From: Eubacteriales Family XIII. Incertae Sedis bacterium
GTDB lineage: Bacteria; Bacillota; Clostridia; Peptostreptococcales; Anaerovoracaceae
DNA length: 10,126 nucleotides
Direction: 5' to 3'
Assembly: GCA_031287295.1 (NCBI GenBank)
Contig: JAITTH010000014.1
Coordinates: 1-10,126, forward strand
Below are positions 986-8,450 of the stretch, one piece after another (position 1 is the stretch's first letter; each line of letters opens with the position of its first letter). Under the pieces are notes generated by a model that ran no database searches, was not told the DNA's origin, and worked only from the letters and a program-made list of their open reading frames with translations. Both the position numbers and the translations under genes were made by a program.

Positions 986-1013
986 TTTAGAACCATGACA
1001 TACATGGTACAAT
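986..1013 (+). promoter_or_regulatory. Candidate sigma-A promoter for the EIIC-EAL gene: TTTAGA-N16-TGgTACAAT (extended -10)
   Basis: tttaga(986-991)...TGgTACAAT(1005-1013); a second TACAAT overlaps at 1013-1018. The RBS GGAGG at 1040-1044 sits 6 nt before ATG 1051. Confidence 0.4.
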
Positions 1014-1050
1014 ACAATGATACATTTGTATTGATTCGTGGAGGAATAGT

Positions 1051-3171
1051 ATGTCGGGCAGGTTTGGGAAGATTGCGTCGGTAGTCTCCGAAAACGTAAT
1101 CATCCGATCGATTAACAGAGGACTTATTAATATCATCCCCTTTGTTCTGATTGGCGCGTTCATTGTTGCAATATTGAACTTGCCGATTCCTTCCTATCAG
1201 GATGCGATTGCCAAGATTCTGGGAACGGACTGGCGCACAGTGAGTCTTATGATTCATTTTGGAACGCTTAATGTCATCGGACTCATTGCCCTTTTTTCGG
1301 TTAGCTTCTCCCTTTCAATGGAAGAAAAAATGGTGAAGGATGGGGAGATCAGCCCTCTTGTTATTGTCCTTACGTCGTTTGCTTCTTACACCATCGTTAT
1401 GGCGAGGAGTATGGAAGGGCTGACGTTCCATTATCCGGGCGCCAACGGGTTGTTTGCGGCGATATTCATCGCGGTGATCTCGGTAAAGTGTTTCTCGTTC
1501 TTTAATGTGATTCGAAGGAAGTTTCGAATTTCACAACGATCTGTATTTGATCATCATTTGACCCTCCGGTCGGCATTCAAGGCGATTTTTCCGGTCTTTG
1601 CCACTTTGTTTTTGTTTGCGGTTTTCCGCGTTTTTATAGGAGAATATTTCTCAAATGAGAACTTTGTTGCTTTCTTCGGCAACTTCGTAAATAGGTATTT
1701 ATCCGATGACGGATTTTTCTCGATGGTGATTATCATCCTGATGACGGAGTTCTTCTGGTTTATTGGCATACACGGTGGGGATGTTATTATGGACGGCATC
1801 TCATCAATCGCAAACGGAACCGCAGATGGCGGTGTGGTCTTGACCAAGGAATTTTTCGATACGTTCATCTACCTTGGAGGCTCCGGTGCGACGCTTGGAA
1901 TGCTGCTTGCGCTTTTCTTTGTCAAAACAAGGCACAAAGGAAGGCGGCTTGCAAAGGTATCGCTCTTTCCTGCCATATTCAACATTAACGAGACACTGAT
2001 TTATGGCGTGCCGATTATCTTCAATCCCCTCTTCTTTATTCCTTTCGTGTGTTCTCCGATTGTTCTCGGTGCGATTGCCTTTGTCAGCACACATCTTGGC
2101 ATTCTTCCTGTTGTCGATACCGCCGGGCAATGGACGACACCCATTTTTCTCTCAGGCTACCTCGCGACGGGATCCTATAACGCCATCTTCATTCAGGCGA
2201 TTGGGCTTGCTGTCAGCACCTTCATTTACATCCCTTTCATCAAACTTGCCGGGCGGTCTGAACAGATAAAGAATCAGAACGATTTCGTCGAACTGCAAAA
2301 AGCTGCGATATCCGCAGCGGAAAATGAATACATTTCACTCATTGCACGCAAAGATCATATCGGCGAACTTGCCCGCGATTTCGCTACGGAATTACGGGAG
2401 CAATTTACATCAAAGCGAATTCCTTTTCGCATGGTTTTTCAACCGAAGACAGACGATGCCGGTAGAGTAAAAGGCGCAGAAGCACTTCTTCGCTGGAACC
2501 ATCCGGACTACGGCAATGTTTCACCGGTTATGATTGTCGAAATGTGTGATGAGGCGGAGCTCTCTATTGAACTCGGTCGGTGGGTGCTTGAAAAATCGAT
2601 TCAGGGATTCGCCGCGTTCAGAAGAGCGGGCGTTGATGATATCTCGATTTCAATCAATCTGAATCCACAGCACATTCATGCGGATCCGGGCTTCCCGGAC
2701 TTTGTTGCAAAGGTTCTTTCGAAGTACCGCGTGCCACCGGATCTTGTCGAACTCGAAATAACAGAGCATGCCGTCGTGAATTCCGGAGAAAGTACAAAAG
2801 AAATATTCCGGCGCCTTCGTGACATCGGCGTTTCGCTTTCTATAGACGATCTTGGGATGGGTTATAGTTCGTTGACCTACATTAGCGACTTTGGTGCCAA
2901 GACAGTGAAGATCGACACTTCGCTCATACGCGGAATCGAAAATGATGTCAACAGGCAGGAGATCGTTCGTTCCATTCTCCGTCTTCAGCAACGCATCGAT
3001 ATCGAAATCATCGTTGAGGGCGTTGAGACACGGGCGGAACTTGAGGTTTTGTCTCAGCTCGGCACGAAGTATTACCAAGGCTATTATTTCAGCAAACCTC
3101 TTCCGCCAAGAGAATTTTTGGCGTACCATGCAGAACACGGAAGCGTAAAGCAGTCCAGCCCCACAGTCTAA
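1051..3171 (+). CDS. Membrane c-di-GMP phosphodiesterase: N-terminal PTS EIIC (lactose/cellobiose-type) permease-like domain fused to a C-terminal EAL domain; no GGDEF domain
   Basis: N-terminal ~400 aa is polytopic. It carries motifs I recall from PTS EIIC type 3: FFWFIGIHGG and NETLIYGVPIIFNPLFFIPF (cf. W-F-x-G-I-H-G and NEP-x-I-FG-x-P-x-NP...IPF). The C-terminal domain has every canonical EAL motif: FQPK, AEALLRW, ISINLN, ELEITEH, DDLGMGYSSL, KIDTSL, EGVET, QGYYFSKP. GGAGG RBS at 1040-1044. Confidence 0.85.
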   Translation: MSGRFGKIASVVSENVIIRSINRGLINIIPFVLIGAFIVAILNLPIPSYQDAIAKILGTDWRTVSLMIHFGTLNVIGLIALFSVSFSLSMEEKMVKDGEISPLVIVLTSFASYTIVMARSMEGLTFHYPGANGLFAAIFIAVISVKCFSFFNVIRRKFRISQRSVFDHHLTLRSAFKAIFPVFATLFLFAVFRVFIGEYFSNENFVAFFGNFVNRYLSDDGFFSMVIIILMTEFFWFIGIHGGDVIMDGISSIANGTADGGVVLTKEFFDTFIYLGGSGATLGMLLALFFVKTRHKGRRLAKVSLFPAIFNINETLIYGVPIIFNPLFFIPFVCSPIVLGAIAFVSTHLGILPVVDTAGQWTTPIFLSGYLATGSYNAIFIQAIGLAVSTFIYIPFIKLAGRSEQIKNQNDFVELQKAAISAAENEYISLIARKDHIGELARDFATELREQFTSKRIPFRMVFQPKTDDAGRVKGAEALLRWNHPDYGNVSPVMIVEMCDEAELSIELGRWVLEKSIQGFAAFRRAGVDDISISINLNPQHIHADPGFPDFVAKVLSKYRVPPDLVELEITEHAVVNSGESTKEIFRRLRDIGVSLSIDDLGMGYSSLTYISDFGAKTVKIDTSLIRGIENDVNRQEIVRSILRLQQRIDIEIIVEGVETRAELEVLSQLGTKYYQGYYFSKPLPPREFLAYHAEHGSVKQSSPTV

Positions 3172-3242
3172 AAATCCGGAAAATGAGCAGCATTACGGTT
3201 CCTTTGTATTGCAAGTTTTCGACGGTTTGATAAACTATACTT

Positions 3243-3256
3243 AGCCTCATGAGGCT
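3243..3256. repeat. Perfect 14-nt palindrome AGCCTCATGAGGCT in the 5' leader of the flotillin gene; an operator or RNA hairpin candidate
   Basis: Read directly; its reverse complement is identical. It lies downstream of a weak candidate promoter (TTGCAA 3209-3214 ... TGaTAAACT 3228-3237) and 50 nt upstream of ATG 3309. Confidence 0.5.
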
Positions 3257-3308
3257 TATTCATCCAACGACACAATCGAGAGACTGCTCTTCGAAAGGAA
3301 ATCAAGCC

Positions 3309-5645
3309 ATGGATACTGTCATAAACACCGTCAGTCTAATTATCCTCATTCCAATTGTTATTGTCATACTTGCCGTTGCGTTCGTTATCTTTAAATTGCG
3401 TTACAAAATTGCGAAGTCAAATCAGGCCCTCGTTATTTCCGGCGGAAAGAAAACGAAAAAAGCACAGCAGGGACCCACCGTATTGGTCTCGGGTGGCGCA
3501 TTCATTTCACCGTTCAAAAGACATGAATTCTTCCCCTTGGCGGTCATGACGGTATCGTCGGATGACAAAAAGACGCAGACAAAAACCGTCGTGCCTGTCG
3601 TCGTCAAGTGGACGGCACAGTTAAAGCCGGATATAGAAACAGAAGGTTCGCTGGCGAAAGCGGTAATGGGCTTTATTGGAAAAAGCGACAAAGAAATTGC
3701 AGATTCCCTGCAACAAACATTGGAAGGCGAAGTGAGAGCCGTAATCGCCACGCTTACGCCGGAAGAGGTTATTGAAGGAAGAGATAAATTTAAGTCCGAC
3801 GTGGAGGCGAACGTCCAAGAAAGAATGGCAGAGCTTGGCTTTAAGCTGATTTCACTGAACATTACAGAGGTCGGAGACGATCAAGGGCATTACGACAATT
3901 TGGCAGCGAAAGACCGTGAAGAAAGACGTCGCGAAGCAGAGAACCTGCGTGCAAAAGAACAACAATCCATTGACGAAACAGCAGCTGCGACCAGTCGGGC
4001 CTCCGAAGAGGCGCGCATTGCCAAAGACCTGGCAATTGCAGAGAAAGATCGGGATCTTAAACTGAAAAAGTCGGAGTACCAAGCGGAGACGGACAAGGCG
4101 GGACAAGACGCGCTCTACGCAGGAAGGATTCGCGAACAGGAGAGAGCCAAAGAACTGGCGAACAGCGAAGGTGCGGTTATGGTTGAGCGAGAAAGGCAAA
4201 ACCAGGCGGCTGCCGAAGCCCGTCGCAATGTGGAAACAACCATGGCGGAAACCGCAAAACAAAAGGCAAAAATCGATGCCGAATCTGCGGCGCAAAAGGC
4301 GGAGATTGATGCAAAGGCACGTGTGATCATCGCCGAACAGGATGCCGAGGCGAAAGCGAAGGCCGCCGAGAGAGAAGCCGGAGGTCAAGCCGAAGCCGAC
4401 AAACGTCGCGCAGAAGGTAAGGCAACTGCTCGCAAAACAGAAGCCGAGGCGGAAGCCGAATTCATCAAAAAGACGCGATTCGCCAATGCAGATGGTATTG
4501 CGGCGGAAGGTCGTGCAGAGGCAGAAGCCATTCGTGAAAAGGGTCTTGCCGAGGCAGAAGCCGAAAGAGCAAAGGCAGAAGCGCTCGCTGCGAATGAAGC
4601 CGTTAATCTGCAAGTTACCTTGGCGGAGATCGAGAGCAAAACGCGCATCCAGGTTTCGACTGCCATTGCCACGGCAGTTGCGGAAGTTGGAACAAACGCT
4701 ACCATCATCGATATGGGAGGCAGTGGTCATCGTGAAGAAGGGAATTTGCTGACCAATTTTTTAGGAAGCCTTCCCGAGACATTGGCGAAAATGGATGTTA
4801 AATCGGCGGCACTGAATGGTGCATCCGCCTCAGAAGTCATCAACGCCCTTTCGGCAGCGCTTCAGAACAAAGAGGCGATAGGAGGTTCCGAACTCGGAAC
4901 CATTGCGAAAAAAGTCATACATCATGAAACACCTGAGGGGCAAATGTCCACGACGATAACCGTAACGCCGGTTGCTGAAATCTCGGAAGATGCAGAGGAT
5001 GTCGTTTCTCCACCTGAGGAAAAGATTTCGGAGAATACGAATACGGATTCCGAAGACGCGAAAGAGGAACCCGTTGTCACGGCAGTTGAAGAAAAACCGG
5101 AACCGGAAGACGTAAACACCGAAAGCAAACAAGCCGACGAGGGTGCGTGGACCTTGCCGTTTGATGGGTCTAAGAAAGCGGTCCATGACACGCCTGTTGT
5201 GGAGGAAGTCGTCGAGGCTGTGGTTGCGGAGGAAGTCGTCGAGGCAGTGGCTGCGGAAGAAGTTGTCGAGGCTGTGGCCACGGAAGAAGTCGTCGAAGCC
5301 GAAACAATCGAGGCTCCCGAAGACAATCCCATTCTGGTTGCAGAGGCGAAGGGTGCCGTTGCCGATATCGTTCAAGCGCAGAAGCTTGGTGCTGCGGAAA
5401 CTGAAGAAATTGCCAAGATTTACACCATCGCCAAGGATTCAGGGCTCGACGACAAAGAAGCGCTCGATTTGGTCGCGAAAGGCGTAGGTGCAGTCAAGAC
5501 GATGCACAAATCCGGCGAACGTGTCGATCCAAAAGCCGTCGCCAAGGTTATGCTCGATTTGGATGCCAGTGGCAATGTCGGAACAGATGAAATTATTGAT
5601 TTACTAGCAAACTTCGGGAAAAAGGCGGCAGCAAAGAAACGCTAG
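3309..5645 (+). CDS. floT: Flotillin (SPFH/band-7 family, FloT/YuaG-like) with a long C-terminal extension (acidic tandem-repeat tract plus a ~100-aa helical two-repeat module); 778 aa from ATG 3309
   Basis: The N-terminus parallels B. subtilis FloT from memory: TM helix, then ...KLRYKIAKSNQALVISGG... and VLVSGGAFISPF (cf. ITKYRTAGPDEALIVTG and IVRGGGTFVLPVFQ). It is followed by the SPFH core and an EA-rich coiled-coil (AEAEAKAKAAEREA...). ATG 3309 has AAAGGAA 9 nt upstream. ATG 3249, the ORF-track start, has no RBS and sits inside the palindrome. The minus-strand ORFs 3422-5375 are shadows of the repetitive GC-rich coding sequence. Confidence 0.85.
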   Translation: MDTVINTVSLIILIPIVIVILAVAFVIFKLRYKIAKSNQALVISGGKKTKKAQQGPTVLVSGGAFISPFKRHEFFPLAVMTVSSDDKKTQTKTVVPVVVKWTAQLKPDIETEGSLAKAVMGFIGKSDKEIADSLQQTLEGEVRAVIATLTPEEVIEGRDKFKSDVEANVQERMAELGFKLISLNITEVGDDQGHYDNLAAKDREERRREAENLRAKEQQSIDETAAATSRASEEARIAKDLAIAEKDRDLKLKKSEYQAETDKAGQDALYAGRIREQERAKELANSEGAVMVERERQNQAAAEARRNVETTMAETAKQKAKIDAESAAQKAEIDAKARVIIAEQDAEAKAKAAEREAGGQAEADKRRAEGKATARKTEAEAEAEFIKKTRFANADGIAAEGRAEAEAIREKGLAEAEAERAKAEALAANEAVNLQVTLAEIESKTRIQVSTAIATAVAEVGTNATIIDMGGSGHREEGNLLTNFLGSLPETLAKMDVKSAALNGASASEVINALSAALQNKEAIGGSELGTIAKKVIHHETPEGQMSTTITVTPVAEISEDAEDVVSPPEEKISENTNTDSEDAKEEPVVTAVEEKPEPEDVNTESKQADEGAWTLPFDGSKKAVHDTPVVEEVVEAVVAEEVVEAVAAEEVVEAVATEEVVEAETIEAPEDNPILVAEAKGAVADIVQAQKLGAAETEEIAKIYTIAKDSGLDDKEALDLVAKGVGAVKTMHKSGERVDPKAVAKVMLDLDASGNVGTDEIIDLLANFGKKAAAKKR
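5203..5307 (+). repeat. In-frame 27-bp tandem repeat (~3.9 copies) encoding (EEVVEAVxA)n inside the flotillin C-terminal extension
   Basis: Units: gaggaagtcgtcgaggctgtggttgcg / gaggaagtcgtcgaggcagtggctgcg / gaagaagttgtcgaggctgtggccacg / gaagaagtcgtcgaagccgaaaca. Read directly. Confidence 0.9.
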
Positions 5646-5680: not shown

Positions 5681-6397
5681 ATGCTTAGAATTGAACACCT
5701 AATCAAGACGTATAGCGGAAAACCTGCGGTGGACGATTTGTCCCTGCACATCGCGAAGGGCGAAATATGTGGATTTATCGGGCACAACGGTGCGGGGAAA
5801 ACAACAACCATTAAGTCAGTCTGCGGGATTCTGGGTTTCGACAGTGGTGAAATTTATGTTGGTGGCAAGTCTATCAAAACAGAACCGCTCGAATGTAAAC
5901 GGCACATGGCGTATATTCCGGACAATCCGGATTTGTACGATTTTTTATCCGGTATAAAGTATCTGAACTTCGTTGCCGATGTGTATGGAATTGATGCGAC
6001 ACAGCGTCAGGAGCGGATTCATTCTTATGCGGATATGTTCGAATTAACGGCAAACCTTGCCCAATCCATCGCAACATACTCGCACGGCATGAAGCAAAAG
6101 CTTGCACTCATTTCTGCGTTCATTCACGATCCGGAATTTATCATCCTCGATGAACCTTTTGTCGGGTTGGATCCAAAGGCAGCACGTATTGTCAAAGATC
6201 TCATGCGTGAAAAGTGCAATGCGGGAGGCGCCGTATTTTTCTCGACGCATGTTCTGGAAGTCGCGGAAAAACTGTGCGACAAGGTTGCCATCATCAAAAG
6301 CGGCAAGTTGGTTGCCTACGGCGATATGGACGTGGTGCGCGGAGATTCCTCTCTTGAAGATGTATTCTTTGAACTGGAGGCAGATGAAAATGATTAA
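5681..6397 (+). CDS. ABC transporter ATP-binding protein (ABC-2 type exporter ATPase)
   Basis: Walker A GHNGAGKTT, signature-like YSHGMKQKLAL, Walker B IILDEPF, H-loop FSTHV. RBS GAGGGG 8 nt before ATG 5681. Only 35 nt after the flotillin stop with no terminator, so it is co-transcribed. Confidence 0.9.
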   Translation: MLRIEHLIKTYSGKPAVDDLSLHIAKGEICGFIGHNGAGKTTTIKSVCGILGFDSGEIYVGGKSIKTEPLECKRHMAYIPDNPDLYDFLSGIKYLNFVADVYGIDATQRQERIHSYADMFELTANLAQSIATYSHGMKQKLALISAFIHDPEFIILDEPFVGLDPKAARIVKDLMREKCNAGGAVFFSTHVLEVAEKLCDKVAIIKSGKLVAYGDMDVVRGDSSLEDVFFELEADEND

Positions 6398-7991
6398 GAC
6401 TCTGTTTTTCATCAATTTAAGAGCCTTGGGTTCGAATTTCATGAAAGGTAGCGGGAATAAGAAAACCGGTGGCGGGAAGATTTTTCTTTTGGTACTGCTT
6501 GTCCTTTATATCGCTGCCGTGTTTGTCGGAATGCTTGCAATGTTCTTCCATTCCCTTTTGGAGCCATTCTTTACCTTTGGAATCGGATGGCTGTATTTTG
6601 CCCTTCTTGGACTTATCGCGTTTGGCATATCTGTCGTTGGTACGATTTTCACCGCATCGGCGCAGATTTTTGCGGCGAAAGACAATGAACTTTTGCTTTC
6701 CATGCCGATAAAGCCATCGGCCATTCTCATGAGTCGCCTGCTTGTGCTTCTCTCCTTTGAGTACGCGCTTACGACAGTCGTTATGCTGCCAGCCTTTGTC
6801 TTGTGGCTTTTTGGAGGGTATGCGACTGCAGCAGGAATCATATTTTTTATCATGGGCGTCTTGCTATTGCCACTTATGGCGATGGCTGCGGCACTGTTGT
6901 TGGCATGGATATTAGGCACGGTTTCATCGCGTTTGCGGCACAAAAACATCATTACGCTTGTTCTTGCTGTTGGCTTCATGCTGGCGTACTTTTACATCAT
7001 GACCAACATTCAAGGCTATTTAGGAGAATTGGTAACAAAAGGTGCCGAGCTTGCGGAAGCATTCCGACGGGCAATTCCACCCCTATACGCCTTTGGGCAA
7101 AGCGTCGCAGAAGGAAGCGCGGGAAGTGCGATGCTCTTTATCCTATGGGCAGTATTGCCGTTTGCCATGGCAGTAGTGCTCGTTTCCAGGAATTACAGAA
7201 AGATACTCATCACGAATCGGGGTGGTGTAAAGACCGTATACAAAGAGAAAGCCGTAAAAGCAAGCGGTGCACTCCCTGCGCTGATTCGAAAAGAATTGGT
7301 GCATTTTTGGAGCAAACCGTTTATCATCCTCAACAGCTCAATCGGTTCGTTGTTCATGCTTATCTTTGCCGTTATGGTTCTCGTAAAGAAAGAGGCAATT
7401 CTTTCGATTATTGTAGACGTAGCACCTATGTTTGGAAATCTATCGCCGATTCCTCTGATGGCGGTTTCTCTTGCAATTTTGGGTGTTTTTAACATCCTCA
7501 GTGCTTCCTTAATCTCGCTTGAGGGGAAAAGTCTATGGATTGCAAAAAGCATTCCCGTACCGATTCGCACAATCATTACATCCAAGGTGTGTACGCATCT
7601 TATCGTCTCCGGTCTTCCTTGCCTTGTCGCCTCGATCTGCGCGATCATTGCTTTTGCGGACGGCGTGACAGACTGCCTTATCATTCTACTGCCTCCGCAG
7701 GTGGCAAGCGCACTCATGGCCGTATGTGGTGTCGCCGTTAACCTGAATCATCCGAAGCTGGAATGGACAAATGAAATATACGCGGTGAAGCAAGGGGCAT
7801 CTGCCATGATTACCATGTTTGGCGCGATGGGGCTGGTTGTCGGATTGAGTCTTGTCTATGCGATTTTGCTGCAAAGCATCGTTACCCTGACGGTGTTTTT
7901 ATGGATTTGCACGGCGGTGTTTGCTGTGGCGATTGTCTTCATCTACTCGGGACTCATGAAATCCGGGGTTCGGAAGTTTCAGGAACTATAG
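6390..7991 (+). CDS. Polytopic membrane permease partner of the ABC ATPase (ABC_export-like putative exporter, ~534 aa)
   Basis: The start overlaps the ATPase stop (gaggcagATGaaaATGattaag; GGAGG at 6376-6380), which indicates translational coupling. ATG 6390, or 6384. The ORF-track start at 6102 is an artefactual upstream extension in a frame overlapping the ATPase. The protein is MKMIKTLFFINLRALGSNFMKGSGNKKTGGGKIF... followed by 10 or more hydrophobic helices. Confidence 0.8.
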   Translation: MIKTLFFINLRALGSNFMKGSGNKKTGGGKIFLLVLLVLYIAAVFVGMLAMFFHSLLEPFFTFGIGWLYFALLGLIAFGISVVGTIFTASAQIFAAKDNELLLSMPIKPSAILMSRLLVLLSFEYALTTVVMLPAFVLWLFGGYATAAGIIFFIMGVLLLPLMAMAAALLLAWILGTVSSRLRHKNIITLVLAVGFMLAYFYIMTNIQGYLGELVTKGAELAEAFRRAIPPLYAFGQSVAEGSAGSAMLFILWAVLPFAMAVVLVSRNYRKILITNRGGVKTVYKEKAVKASGALPALIRKELVHFWSKPFIILNSSIGSLFMLIFAVMVLVKKEAILSIIVDVAPMFGNLSPIPLMAVSLAILGVFNILSASLISLEGKSLWIAKSIPVPIRTIITSKVCTHLIVSGLPCLVASICAIIAFADGVTDCLIILLPPQVASALMAVCGVAVNLNHPKLEWTNEIYAVKQGASAMITMFGAMGLVVGLSLVYAILLQSIVTLTVFLWICTAVFAVAIVFIYSGLMKSGVRKFQEL

Positions 7992-8042: not shown

Positions 8043-8450
8043 TTACATGCCGGCTCGACGTGAAATGGCAATTTCTGTGAGTGCGTCTTGAAGAACGCGC
8101 GAAAAATTGATATGGTTCGTTTCGGCAAAAGTGTTAAGCCATGCAGGTATCGTCAAGTTTTTCCGTACCGCTTTTTTGCCAAACCGCTCTGCGTAAGCAG
8201 TCATATCAAGCGCGATGACACTTACGAAGGCATCAGGTGAATCCGCCTCGATTTTTTTTACGGGACTTGGTGCAGGCACATGATTCCCGTTTTCCCATTC
8301 GCTGAGGATCCATCCACTTGCTGCGTCAATTGCCATGTCGAGGGCTTCCGCAAGCGTATTGCCACCGGTTGCACATCCCGGGAGATCGGGGACAACGACT
8401 GCATAGGCATCGCCATCAGGATAAAAAATTGCCGGATAAATCAATTTCAT
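8043..8450 (-). CDS. hicB: HicB-family type II antitoxin-like protein (RNase-H-like fold N-domain plus C-terminal ribbon-helix-helix DNA-binding domain); no HicA gene found nearby
   Basis: MKLIYPAIFYPDGDAYAVVVPDLPGCATGGNTLAEALDMAIDAASGWI... is the classic HicB/UPF0150 N-terminus. The C-terminus ...KNLTIPAWLNTFAETNHINFSRVLQDAL fits an RHH beta-strand plus helix. RBS AGAGGTGG on the minus strand (plus 8455-8462). Stop TAA at 8043-8045. Confidence 0.85.
   Translation of the reverse strand: MKLIYPAIFYPDGDAYAVVVPDLPGCATGGNTLAEALDMAIDAASGWILSEWENGNHVPAPSPVKKIEADSPDAFVSVIALDMTAYAERFGKKAVRKNLTIPAWLNTFAETNHINFSRVLQDALTEIAISRRAGM

What the first reader, a model, noticed from the sequence alone, without database searches (positions are those of the whole stretch)
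1051..3171. Sugar-permease-like (PTS EIIC) sensor domain fused to a catalytically intact EAL phosphodiesterase
The N-terminal ~400 aa carry hallmark motifs of lactose/cellobiose-family EIIC permeases (WFIGIHGG and NETLIYGVPIIFNP...IPF). The C-terminus has every conserved EAL catalytic and metal-binding motif and no GGDEF domain. This suggests c-di-GMP hydrolysis gated by binding or transport of a beta-glucoside-type sugar, which would be a direct link between carbohydrate sensing and c-di-GMP signalling. I believe such EIIC-EAL architectures exist in Firmicutes genomes but are functionally uncharacterised. I cannot verify that from here. It sits immediately upstream of the flotillin-ABC operon.
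Basis: partly seen in the sequence, partly recalled or inferred. Interest (0 to 1): 0.55.

Follow-up and report, generated by a model that had tools for sequence, protein, structure and literature searches.

The report
Sugar-permease-like sensor fused to c-di-GMP phosphodiesterase
This gene encodes a membrane protein in which a sugar-permease module (PTS EIIC, cellobiose/chitobiose type) is joined to an apparently active c-di-GMP-degrading EAL enzyme, an architecture already listed in databases and widespread in bacteria but never studied experimentally, and most likely a permease turned into a receptor.

Summary
ORF 1051-3171 (+, 706 aa) has a lactose/cellobiose-family PTS EIIC domain (Pfam 101.7 bits; ChbC 3QNQ E 6e-48) and an EAL domain (210 bits). 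There is no GGDEF domain. All EAL catalytic and metal-binding residues are invariant across 116 homologues. The EIIC pocket residues (His241 = ChbC His250, Glu314 = ChbC Glu334, GGSGAT, WTTP) are also kept.

The architecture is not new. NCBI already names relatives [quoted passage not shown], a 2022 review lists PTS_EIIC among rare domains in c-di-GMP proteins, and about 135 of the 150 best 50%-identity clusters carry it. It occurs in Clostridia, Coriobacteriia, Desulfobacter and Beta/Gammaproteobacteria. I found no experimental study.

New here:
- The same EIIC clade is also fused to hybrid histidine kinases and to an MCP signalling domain, so it behaves as a swappable input module.
- A conserved, weakly HAMP-like linker (R-x-D-x-x-G-x-L-A-R) is shared by all these fusions.
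- None of 25 EIIC-EAL loci has EIIB, EIIA or HPr nearby, and no glycoside hydrolase operon appeared in the annotated or Pfam-scanned loci.
- The flotillin-ABC adjacency is real but not conserved.

Best reading: a permease-derived receptor that gates phosphodiesterase activity. The ligand and the sign of regulation are unknown.

The parts
986..1013 (+). Promoter-like site (TTTAGA, 16 nt spacer, TACAAT, with TG extension) in the 80-nt gap after the DUF2148 gene
   Evidence: Consensus scan, 9 of 12 matches. This is a weak, pattern-only match and is not evidence of function.
1040..1044 (+). Ribosome-binding site GGAGG, 6 nt before the ATG
   Evidence: Read directly from the sequence.
1051..3171 (+). 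Complete CDS of the EIIC-linker-EAL protein (706 aa plus stop)
   Evidence: ORF list and translation. It is 100% identical to database protein P0001.
1072..2274 (+). PTS EIIC module, lactose/cellobiose/chitobiose family (residues 8-408). It has about 10 TM helices plus re-entrant hairpins, and the pocket motifs WFIGIHGG (236), GGSGAT (276), FNINE (310-314) and WTTP (361).
   Evidence: Pfam PF02378 101.7 bits. TIGR00410 213 bits over the full model. ChbC 3QNQ E 2.6e-48, with His241 aligned to His250 and Glu314 to Glu334. Foldseek to 3QNQ E 4e-17. The motifs are conserved in 116 homologues.
2245..2415 (+). Cytoplasmic helical linker (residues 399-455): an extension of TM10, a loop, then a second helix. 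It carries the family-conserved motif R433-x-D435-x-x-G438-x-L-A441-R442 and is weakly HAMP-like.
   Evidence: In the AF2 model helix 376-424 is followed by loop 425-435 and helix 436-453. The motif is at least 90% conserved. It is shared by the HK and MCP fusions and absent from canonical EIIC P0261. hhalign against HAMP gives probability 74%, E 2.7e-5, but the Pfam HAMP model does not match this protein.
2389..3099 (+). EAL domain (residues 447-683) with the complete catalytic and metal-binding set: E477, R481, N536, E569, E572, D599, D600, K620, E656, Q676, and loop-6 DDLGMGYSS
   Evidence: Pfam PF00563 210 bits. PDB hits to active EALs (BifA 8ARV E 3e-42, MorA 4RNI, MucR, RocR). Foldseek TM-score 0.88-0.90 normalised to target. 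The residues are invariant in 116 homologues.

Best explanation
The gene encodes a permease-derived membrane receptor. A dimeric EIIC module of the lactose/cellobiose/chitobiose PTS family binds an extracellular ligand in its retained sugar pocket; the ligand is probably a beta-linked di- or oligosaccharide. The resulting shift of the transport domain, which contains TM10, is passed through the TM10 extension helix and a conserved, weakly HAMP-like linker to the C-terminal EAL domains. This changes their dimer geometry and so their c-di-GMP phosphodiesterase activity.

Shown here: the two domains, the intact catalytic and pocket residues, the conserved linker, the swapping of the EIIC module among EAL, histidine-kinase and MCP outputs, and the absence of neighbouring PTS partner genes.

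Inferred: that a sugar is the ligand, that the signal travels by the elevator movement, that the protein does not need EIIB~P, and whether the ligand switches the enzyme on or off.
For: 1. Both domains are present at high significance and the junction is real: 246 database proteins carry both.
2. The EAL residues E477, L479, R481, N536, E569, E572, D599, D600, K620, D622, E656, E659 and Q676 are invariant in 116 homologues at 29-50% identity. The model superposes on active EALs at TM-score 0.88-0.90.
3. The EIIC pocket is kept. His241 and Glu314 align with ChbC His250 and Glu334 and are at least 90% conserved. N311, W361, P364 and G276/G277/G279 are invariant. W..G.HG is found in 95% and N.NE in 92% of 235 full-length members.
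4. Input-module behaviour: among the 150 best 50%-identity representatives of the EIIC part, three are EIIC-HisKA-HATPase_c-REC and one is EIIC-MCPsignal. In a distance tree they sit among EAL-fused EIICs, while canonical ChbC and P0261 form the outgroup. P0253 still keeps the first ~50 residues of an EAL domain ahead of its kinase.
5. The linker motif is shared by the EAL, HK and MCP fusions and is missing from canonical EIIC. hhalign places it in register with HAMP AS1/AS2.
6. No EIIB, EIIA or HPr lies within about 10 kb in 25 EIIC-EAL loci (tblastn). Gene tables for 8 distinct loci show no PTS or glycoside hydrolase operon. In 15 genome loci the most frequent neighbour families are MCPsignal, GGDEF and ABC_tran (4 each) and PilZ (2).
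7. A precedent exists for a transporter module driving a c-di-GMP enzyme through a HAMP domain: Sd-Amt1 (PMC11152129).
Against: - There is no experimental evidence for ligand binding, phosphodiesterase activity or regulation.
- Retained His and Glu residues are equally expected of a working PTS permease, so transport is not excluded.
- EIIB/EIIA could be encoded elsewhere in the genome.
- The HAMP assignment is weak. Pfam HAMP gave nothing for this protein and one sub-threshold hit (E 0.045) in ten relatives. A profile search of PDB sequences found no HAMP protein.
- In EIIC dimers the transport domains lie away from the dimer axis (my recollection of the ChbC structure), so it is unclear how the two linkers would meet. 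No dimer model could be made.
- The Foldseek superposition on ChbC is loose (TM-score 0.45 normalised to target, rmsd 10.9 A). This may reflect a different conformational state.
Confidence: 0.55

Rival explanations
1. Transceptor or flux sensor. The protein is still a working PTS permease that takes up and, with EIIB/EIIA encoded elsewhere, phosphorylates a beta-glycoside. The EAL domain reports transport flux or EIIB~P docking, not mere binding.
For: The full EIIC model is matched end to end (TIGR00410 positions 4-422 of 424). His241 and Glu314, which correspond to the ChbC residues next to the sugar C6-OH (my knowledge of Cao et al. 2011), are conserved. A review treats PTS_EIIC in c-di-GMP proteins as a PTS-linked receiver, and PTS-to-PDE coupling is known in Vibrio cholerae (PdeS-EIIA-Glc; PMC8846402).
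Against: No EIIB/EIIA/HPr or sugar-catabolic gene lies near any of 25 EIIC-EAL loci (and the gene tables). The TIGR00410 score is below the family cut-off, and the clade separates from canonical ChbC-type proteins. Hosts include taxa that, to my knowledge, use few or no sugars (Desulfobacter, Raoultibacter, Desulforamulus, Family XIII; names). The EIIC domain itself is not a phospho-acceptor in canonical PTS (established knowledge).
Confidence: 0.2
2. Anchor only. The EIIC module merely tethers and dimerises a constitutively active EAL phosphodiesterase at the membrane, perhaps near flotillin microdomains, and senses nothing.
For: EAL enzymes need dimerisation and EIIC proteins are obligate dimers (established knowledge). 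The gene sits next to a flotillin gene in this window.
Against: Pocket residues with no structural anchoring role stay invariant or at least 90% conserved at 29-50% overall identity. The same module with the same linker is recruited by kinases and a chemoreceptor, which need an input. The flotillin adjacency is not conserved.
Confidence: 0.1
3. Reverse wiring. The EAL domain is the sensor (of c-di-GMP) and controls sugar uptake through the EIIC permease.
For: Some EAL domains act as c-di-GMP receptors, for example FimX and LapD, which appear among the weaker structural and sequence hits.
Against: Receptor-type EALs have degenerate catalytic motifs. Here every catalytic residue is invariant. 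Kinase and MCP domains replace the EAL on the same EIIC module, which only makes sense if EIIC is the input.
Confidence: 0.05

Closest known systems
ChbC of Bacillus cereus (PDB 3QNQ), the N,N'-diacetylchitobiose PTS EIIC, TC 4.A.3 Lac family
   Same: It aligns over residues 8-403 (E 6e-48). The motifs W-x-x-G-I-H-G, GGSGAT, FNINE and WTTP are shared, and His250 and Glu334 are conserved. The predicted fold matches (Foldseek probability 1.0).
   Different: ChbC ends just after TM10 and works with separate EIIB and EIIA proteins in a chb operon. This protein carries a ~50-residue linker and an EAL domain, scores below the TIGR00410 cut-off, belongs to a separate clade and has no PTS partner genes nearby.
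Active (class I) EAL phosphodiesterases such as P. aeruginosa BifA (8ARV), MorA (4RNI), MucR (5M1T), RocR (3SY8) and T. denitrificans TBD1265 (2R6O/3N3T)
   Same: There is 26-32% identity over the whole EAL barrel and TM-score 0.88-0.90. All catalytic, metal-binding and loop-6 residues are present.
   Different: Those enzymes take input from GGDEF, PAS, REC or periplasmic domains. Here the input is a transporter module.
Sd-Amt1 (Amt-HAMP-GGDEF ammonium receptor; PMC11152129) and other transporter-derived receptors
   Same: An N-terminal transporter fold has been repurposed as a ligand receptor and is coupled through helical (HAMP) linkers to a c-di-GMP enzyme that must dimerise.
   Different: The transporter family differs (elevator-type EIIC dimer versus Amt trimer). 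The output differs (EAL hydrolase versus GGDEF cyclase). The HAMP assignment here is only suggestive. Nothing has been tested experimentally.
Vibrio cholerae PdeS regulated by EIIA-Glc (Heo et al. 2019, cited in PMC8846402)
   Same: It links the sugar PTS to an EAL phosphodiesterase and so to c-di-GMP levels.
   Different: That link is a protein-protein interaction with a soluble phospho-carrier of the glucose family. Here a membrane EIIC of the Lac family is covalently fused, with no sign of phosphorelay involvement.

Membership tests
PTS EIIC, lactose/cellobiose/chitobiose family (Pfam PF02378; NCBIfam TIGR00410; TC 4.A.3) | Match to the Pfam PTS_EIIC model above the gathering score | tested here: met
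   101.7 bits against a cut-off of 30.7, residues 23-336 covering model positions 2-319 of 319.
PTS EIIC, lactose/cellobiose/chitobiose family (Pfam PF02378; NCBIfam TIGR00410; TC 4.A.3) | Score above the curated cut-off of the Lac-family subfamily model TIGR00410 | tested here: not met
   213.4 bits against a cut-off of 236, although the alignment is full-length (4-422 of 424).
PTS EIIC, lactose/cellobiose/chitobiose family (Pfam PF02378; NCBIfam TIGR00410; TC 4.A.3) | ChbC-like fold with the conserved pocket His and Glu (ChbC His250, Glu334) | tested here: met
   phmmer to 3QNQ gives E 2.6e-48, with His241 aligned to His250 and Glu314 to Glu334. Foldseek gives E 4e-17. The residues are at least 90% conserved in the family.
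PTS EIIC, lactose/cellobiose/chitobiose family (Pfam PF02378; NCBIfam TIGR00410; TC 4.A.3) | Encoded with, or fused to, cognate EIIB and EIIA (per PMC13543919, Lac-family systems always have EIIA plus EIIB/EIIC components) | tested here: not met
   No ChbB/ChbA/HPr-like sequence within about 10 kb in 25 EIIC-EAL loci. None appears in the gene tables of 8 distinct loci or among the listed neighbour families of 15 loci. Whole genomes were not examined.
PTS EIIC, lactose/cellobiose/chitobiose family (Pfam PF02378; NCBIfam TIGR00410; TC 4.A.3) | PEP-dependent transport and phosphorylation of a sugar | not testable with these tools
   This needs a biochemical assay.
Catalytically active EAL c-di-GMP phosphodiesterase (Pfam PF00563) | Match to the Pfam EAL model above the gathering score | tested here: met
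   210 bits against a cut-off of 31.3, model positions 3-236 of 236.
Catalytically active EAL c-di-GMP phosphodiesterase (Pfam PF00563) | Complete catalytic and metal-binding residue set (E-x-L-x-R, N, E-x-x-E, D-D, K, E, Q) and loop-6 D-F/L-G-x-G-Y-S-S | tested here: met
   EALLR 477, N536, EITE 569, DDLGMGYSS 599, KID 620, EGVE 656 and QG 676 are present and invariant in 116 homologues. The assignment of roles to these motifs rests on established knowledge of RocR and TBD1265.
Catalytically active EAL c-di-GMP phosphodiesterase (Pfam PF00563) | Hydrolysis of c-di-GMP to pGpG | not testable with these tools
   This needs an enzyme assay.
HAMP linker domain (Pfam PF00672) | Match to the HAMP profile, or to solved HAMP proteins | tested here: not met
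   No Pfam HAMP hit for this protein even at E up to 10. One of ten relatives gave E 0.045 at 14.5 bits against a cut-off of 25. A profile search of PDB sequences found no HAMP protein.
HAMP linker domain (Pfam PF00672) | Two amphipathic helices (AS1, AS2) joined by a connector, with the D-E-x-G-x-L motif at the start of AS2 | tested here: inconclusive
The AF2 model shows helix, 11-residue loop, helix.
Transporter-derived signalling receptors (such as Sd-Amt1) | Transporter module N-terminal to a signalling output, with the same module combined with different outputs | tested here: met
   EIIC-EAL, EIIC-HisKA-HATPase_c-REC (P0156, P0192, P0253) and EIIC-MCPsignal (P0173) were found, interleaved in the EIIC tree.
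Transporter-derived signalling receptors (such as Sd-Amt1) | Ligand binding changes output activity; transport is lost or dispensable | not testable with these tools
   This needs biochemistry or genetics.

The most novel reading that the evidence does not exclude
The EIIC module plus its conserved HAMP-like linker is a general, PTS-independent receptor cassette. It converts the elevator movement of a sugar permease into a piston or rotation signal for EAL, histidine-kinase and chemoreceptor outputs. Because Lac-family EIICs recognise cellobiose and chitobiose-type disaccharides, which are the repeating units of c-di-GMP-controlled matrix polymers (cellulose, PNAG/chitin-like), it could act as a feedback sensor of matrix or polymer breakdown products, including in bacteria that do not eat sugars.
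Probability: 0.3. Interest if true: 0.65.

Novelty: new member of a known kind. Interest (0 to 1): 0.42.

Why it matters
Most c-di-GMP enzymes have input domains whose signals are unknown. Here the input domain comes from a permease family with a solved structure and a narrow, known substrate range (beta-linked disaccharides). That makes the ligand unusually guessable and the signalling hypothesis directly testable. If confirmed, it would give a first-hand molecular link between carbohydrate perception and c-di-GMP turnover in Clostridia and other anaerobes. It would add elevator-type transporters to the list of folds recruited as receptors, alongside Amt and SLC5-type modules. It would also offer a model for how an elevator movement is read out by a cytoplasmic enzyme. 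For this particular window, however, the protein is one ordinary member of a large family that is already catalogued.

Tried and rejected
- Rfam scan of the whole window, looking for a c-di-GMP riboswitch or other leader: nothing at gathering scores.
- Terminator between the EAL gene and the flotillin gene: none predicted, and the fold of 3160-3255 is no better than shuffles (z -0.2). Co-transcription can be neither shown nor excluded.
- Flotillin-ABC linkage as a functional clue: rejected, because no relative shares it.
- HAMP identity of the linker: Pfam and PDB-profile searches failed. Only hhalign was suggestive, so I call the linker HAMP-like and not HAMP.
- Literature search for experimental work on EIIC-EAL, EIIC-kinase or EIIC sensors: only a census mention in PMC8846402. 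The C. difficile DGC/PDE survey (Bordeleau 2011), the ChbC structure paper (Cao 2011) and McCoy 2016 are not held, and the supplement of the review is not held.
Only 16 of 80 loci were full-length.
Full report
**1. What is in the sequence**

The window is an entire 10126-bp metagenome-assembled contig assigned to a 'Clostridiales Family XIII bacterium'. ORF 1051..3171 on the + strand starts with ATG, six nucleotides after a GGAGG, and encodes 706 residues.

Pfam finds two domains and nothing else:
- PTS_EIIC at residues 23-336: 101.7 bits, E 5e-29.
- EAL at residues 447-683: 210 bits, E 4e-62.

NCBIfam places the N-terminal part in the lactose/cellobiose IIC family. TIGR00410 gives 213 bits over model positions 4-422 of 424, although this is below the curated 236-bit cut-off. 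The best solved relative of the N-terminal part is ChbC of Bacillus cereus, the chitobiose EIIC (3QNQ, E 6e-48, residues 8-403). The C-terminal part matches several biochemically studied EAL phosphodiesterases, including BifA, MorA, MucR, PdeA, DosP and RocR.

**2. State of the two active sites**

In the residue-by-residue alignment with ChbC, His241 (in WFIGIHGG) falls on His250 and Glu314 (in FNINE) on Glu334. Trp236, the GGSGAT stretch and WTTP are also shared. From my knowledge of the ChbC structure paper, which is not held in the library, His250 and Glu334 lie next to the sugar hydroxyl that is phosphorylated.

I aligned 116 full-length homologues that are 29-50% identical to the query (A1).
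- Invariant EAL positions are E477, L479, R481, N536, E569, E572, D599, D600, G602, G604, K620, D622, E656, E659, Q676 and G677. This is the complete catalytic, metal-binding and loop-6 set known from RocR and TBD1265 (established knowledge).
- In the EIIC part, N311, W361, P364 and G276/G277/G279 are invariant.
- W236, H241, N313, E314, T362 and T363 are at least 90% conserved.
- Across 235 full-length members from two searches, W..G.HG occurs in 95% and N.NE in 92%.

Selection has thus preserved both the hydrolase site and the sugar pocket.

**3. Predicted structure**

An AlphaFold2 model built on A1 is confident (mean pLDDT 88, pTM 0.81).
- The last membrane helix (TM10) continues without a break into the cytoplasm as helix 376-424.
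- An 11-residue loop (425-435) follows, then helix 436-453, then the EAL barrel.
- Foldseek recovers ChbC (E 4e-17; a loose superposition with TM-score 0.45 normalised to target, possibly a different transport state).
- It recovers active EAL domains at TM-score 0.88-0.90.
- Since EIIC proteins have both termini in the cytoplasm (established knowledge), the EAL domain is on the side where c-di-GMP is found.

**4. How common the architecture is, and whether it is known**

- The word-indexed search listed its best 120 proteins. All but one (P0086, 621 aa) carry both Pfam domains in the precomputed annotation, and that one also matched the EAL part in my own phmmer scan.
- Relatives come from Geosporobacter, Desulforamulus ruminis (named by NCBI 'PTS sugar transporter subunit IIC/EAL domain-containing protein'), Anaerocolumna, Oscillospiraceae, Coriobacteriales and Desulfobacter.
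- A scan of one genome per species added Lachnospiraceae, Anaerofilum, Lactonifactor, Raoultibacter, Bermanella, Azoarcus and Duganella.
- An exhaustive HMMER search with the EIIC part alone (residues 1-450) against 1.84 billion representatives gave 2646 hits, 450 of them below 1e-30. About 135 of the best 150 representatives are EIIC-EAL proteins of roughly 700 residues.
- In the literature I found one mention. A 2022 census of sensory domains in c-di-GMP proteins lists PTS_EIIC as rare and describes it as a 'phosphoreceiver', with no experiment on such a fusion (PMC8846402).
- Further searches found nothing on EIIC-EAL, EIIC-kinase or EIIC sensors. Some key papers are not in the library.

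The architecture is thus catalogued and named, but uncharacterised as far as I can tell.

**5. Evidence that the EIIC part is an input module**

I scanned the length outliers among the 150 representatives against Pfam.
- P0156, P0192 and P0253 are EIIC-HisKA-HATPase_c-REC hybrid kinases.
- P0173 is EIIC-MCPsignal.
- P0186 is EIIC-PAS, probably a truncated kinase.
- P0261 is a plain 433-residue EIIC.

In a neighbour-joining tree of the EIIC parts, P0261 groups with ChbC as the outgroup. The kinase and MCP fusions are scattered among EAL-fused proteins, each with EAL-fused nearest neighbours. P0253 still has the first ~50 residues of an EAL domain before its kinase, a footprint of output replacement. 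Swapping of output domains on a constant N-terminal module is the classical signature of a sensor domain.

**6. The linker**

Between TM10 and the EAL domain the family conserves R433, D435, G438, A441 and R442 at 90% or more. The same motif occurs in the kinase and MCP fusions, whereas canonical P0261 stops right after TM10. The motif resembles the D-E-I-G-x-L-A start of HAMP helix AS2.

The tests gave mixed results:
- Pfam HAMP does not match this protein, and matches one of ten relatives only below threshold (E 0.045).
- A profile search of PDB sequences finds no HAMP protein.

I therefore call the linker HAMP-like and do not file it as HAMP.

**7. Genomic context**

In the window, the gene follows a DUF2148 gene after an 80-nt gap that holds a weak promoter-like site. 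It precedes, by 77 nt and without a predicted terminator, a flotillin-like gene, an ABC ATPase and a membrane protein. None of this is conserved.
- Eight distinct relatives with annotated gene tables have different neighbours.
- A Pfam scan of 118 neighbouring ORFs from 15 genome loci listed MCPsignal, GGDEF and ABC_tran (4 each) and PilZ (2). No PTS or glycoside-hydrolase family appeared among the 25 most frequent families shown.
- A V4R gene plus a GGDEF gene precede the EIIC-EAL gene in both Geosporobacter and Desulforamulus. MCP/CheW genes are nearby in those two and in Anaerocolumna, and LytTR two-component genes in Geosporobacter and Anaerocolumna.

The gene therefore behaves as a free-standing signalling gene, not as part of a sugar-utilisation operon.

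**8. Mechanism**

The best-supported reading (confidence about 0.55) is a permease-derived receptor. A dimeric EIIC binds a ligand in the retained pocket. The movement of the transport domain, to which TM10 belongs (my recollection of the ChbC and MalT structures; the elevator mechanism is summarised in PMC13543919), is carried by the TM10 extension and the HAMP-like linker. This alters EAL dimer geometry, which controls EAL activity in studied enzymes (established knowledge). The closest characterised analogue in logic is Sd-Amt1, an Amt-HAMP-GGDEF ammonium receptor (PMC11152129).

The rivals are:
- A working PTS permease that reports flux or EIIB~P docking (0.2).
- A passive membrane and dimerisation anchor (0.1).
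- Reverse wiring, with EAL as a c-di-GMP sensor (0.05).

The ligand, the sign of regulation and PTS independence are inferences. Several hosts are, to my knowledge, poor sugar users (Desulfobacter, Raoultibacter, Desulforamulus, Family XIII). This hints at sensing rather than feeding, but I could not check their genomes for PTS components.

**9. Verdict**

The protein is a new member of a known, catalogued but unstudied architecture. The added value of this analysis is fourfold: the output-swapping evidence, the shared linker motif, the lack of PTS partner genes, and the wider taxonomic range. Interest is moderate. This is a good experimental target with a guessable ligand, but not a surprise to a c-di-GMP specialist.

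Noticed in passing
window 3249-5645 (+): A flotillin/Band_7 protein of 798 aa. Its FloT-like N-terminal half (residues 34-415) is followed by a long Ala/Glu/Lys-rich coiled region and an acidic tail. The tail is encoded partly by a 27-bp tandem repeat (5201-5296, 3.6 copies, 'EEVVEAVAA'). The annotated ATG at 3249 has no obvious ribosome-binding site, so a later Met (residue 21) may be the real start.
   Followed up: partly
window 5681-7991 (+): A DrrA/ABC-2-type ATPase (5681-6397) is followed by a large polytopic membrane ORF with no Pfam match. The likely true start of that ORF is near 6385, 'MKMIKTLFF'. Together with the flotillin gene this looks like one transcription unit.
   Followed up: no
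window 8043-8450 (-): A HicB-like antitoxin gene with no HicA-sized ORF (35 aa or more) directly upstream on the same strand. It may be an orphan antitoxin, or the toxin gene is very short or was missed.
   Followed up: partly
L001 7572-9612 and L003/L004 6316-8168: A V4R-domain gene followed by a GGDEF gene lies just upstream of the EIIC-EAL gene in both Geosporobacter ferrireducens and Desulforamulus ruminis. In Desulforamulus a ComFB-family gene sits directly in front of the EIIC-EAL gene. This may be a conserved local c-di-GMP module. It is absent from the window.
   Followed up: no
protein P0253 (909 aa), residues 463-514: This EIIC-hybrid histidine kinase retains the first ~50 residues of an EAL domain (including an 'ESL' in place of EAL) before its HisKA domain. 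This looks like a relic of output-domain replacement in an EAL-fused ancestor.
   Followed up: partly
L001 1-481 and L003 1-1021: About 9 kb upstream of the EIIC-EAL gene, Geosporobacter has a GH18 (chitinase-like) gene with a CBM, and Desulforamulus has a GT2/chitin-synthase-like glycosyltransferase. This is a faint hint of a GlcNAc-polymer theme. The genes are too distant and too few to count as evidence.
   Followed up: no
proteins P0099, P0106, P0107; L090: Other 'Clostridiales Family XIII bacterium' MAG contigs encode EIIC-EAL proteins only about 33% identical to this one. The lineage therefore seems to carry several divergent paralogues, possibly with different ligands.
   Followed up: no
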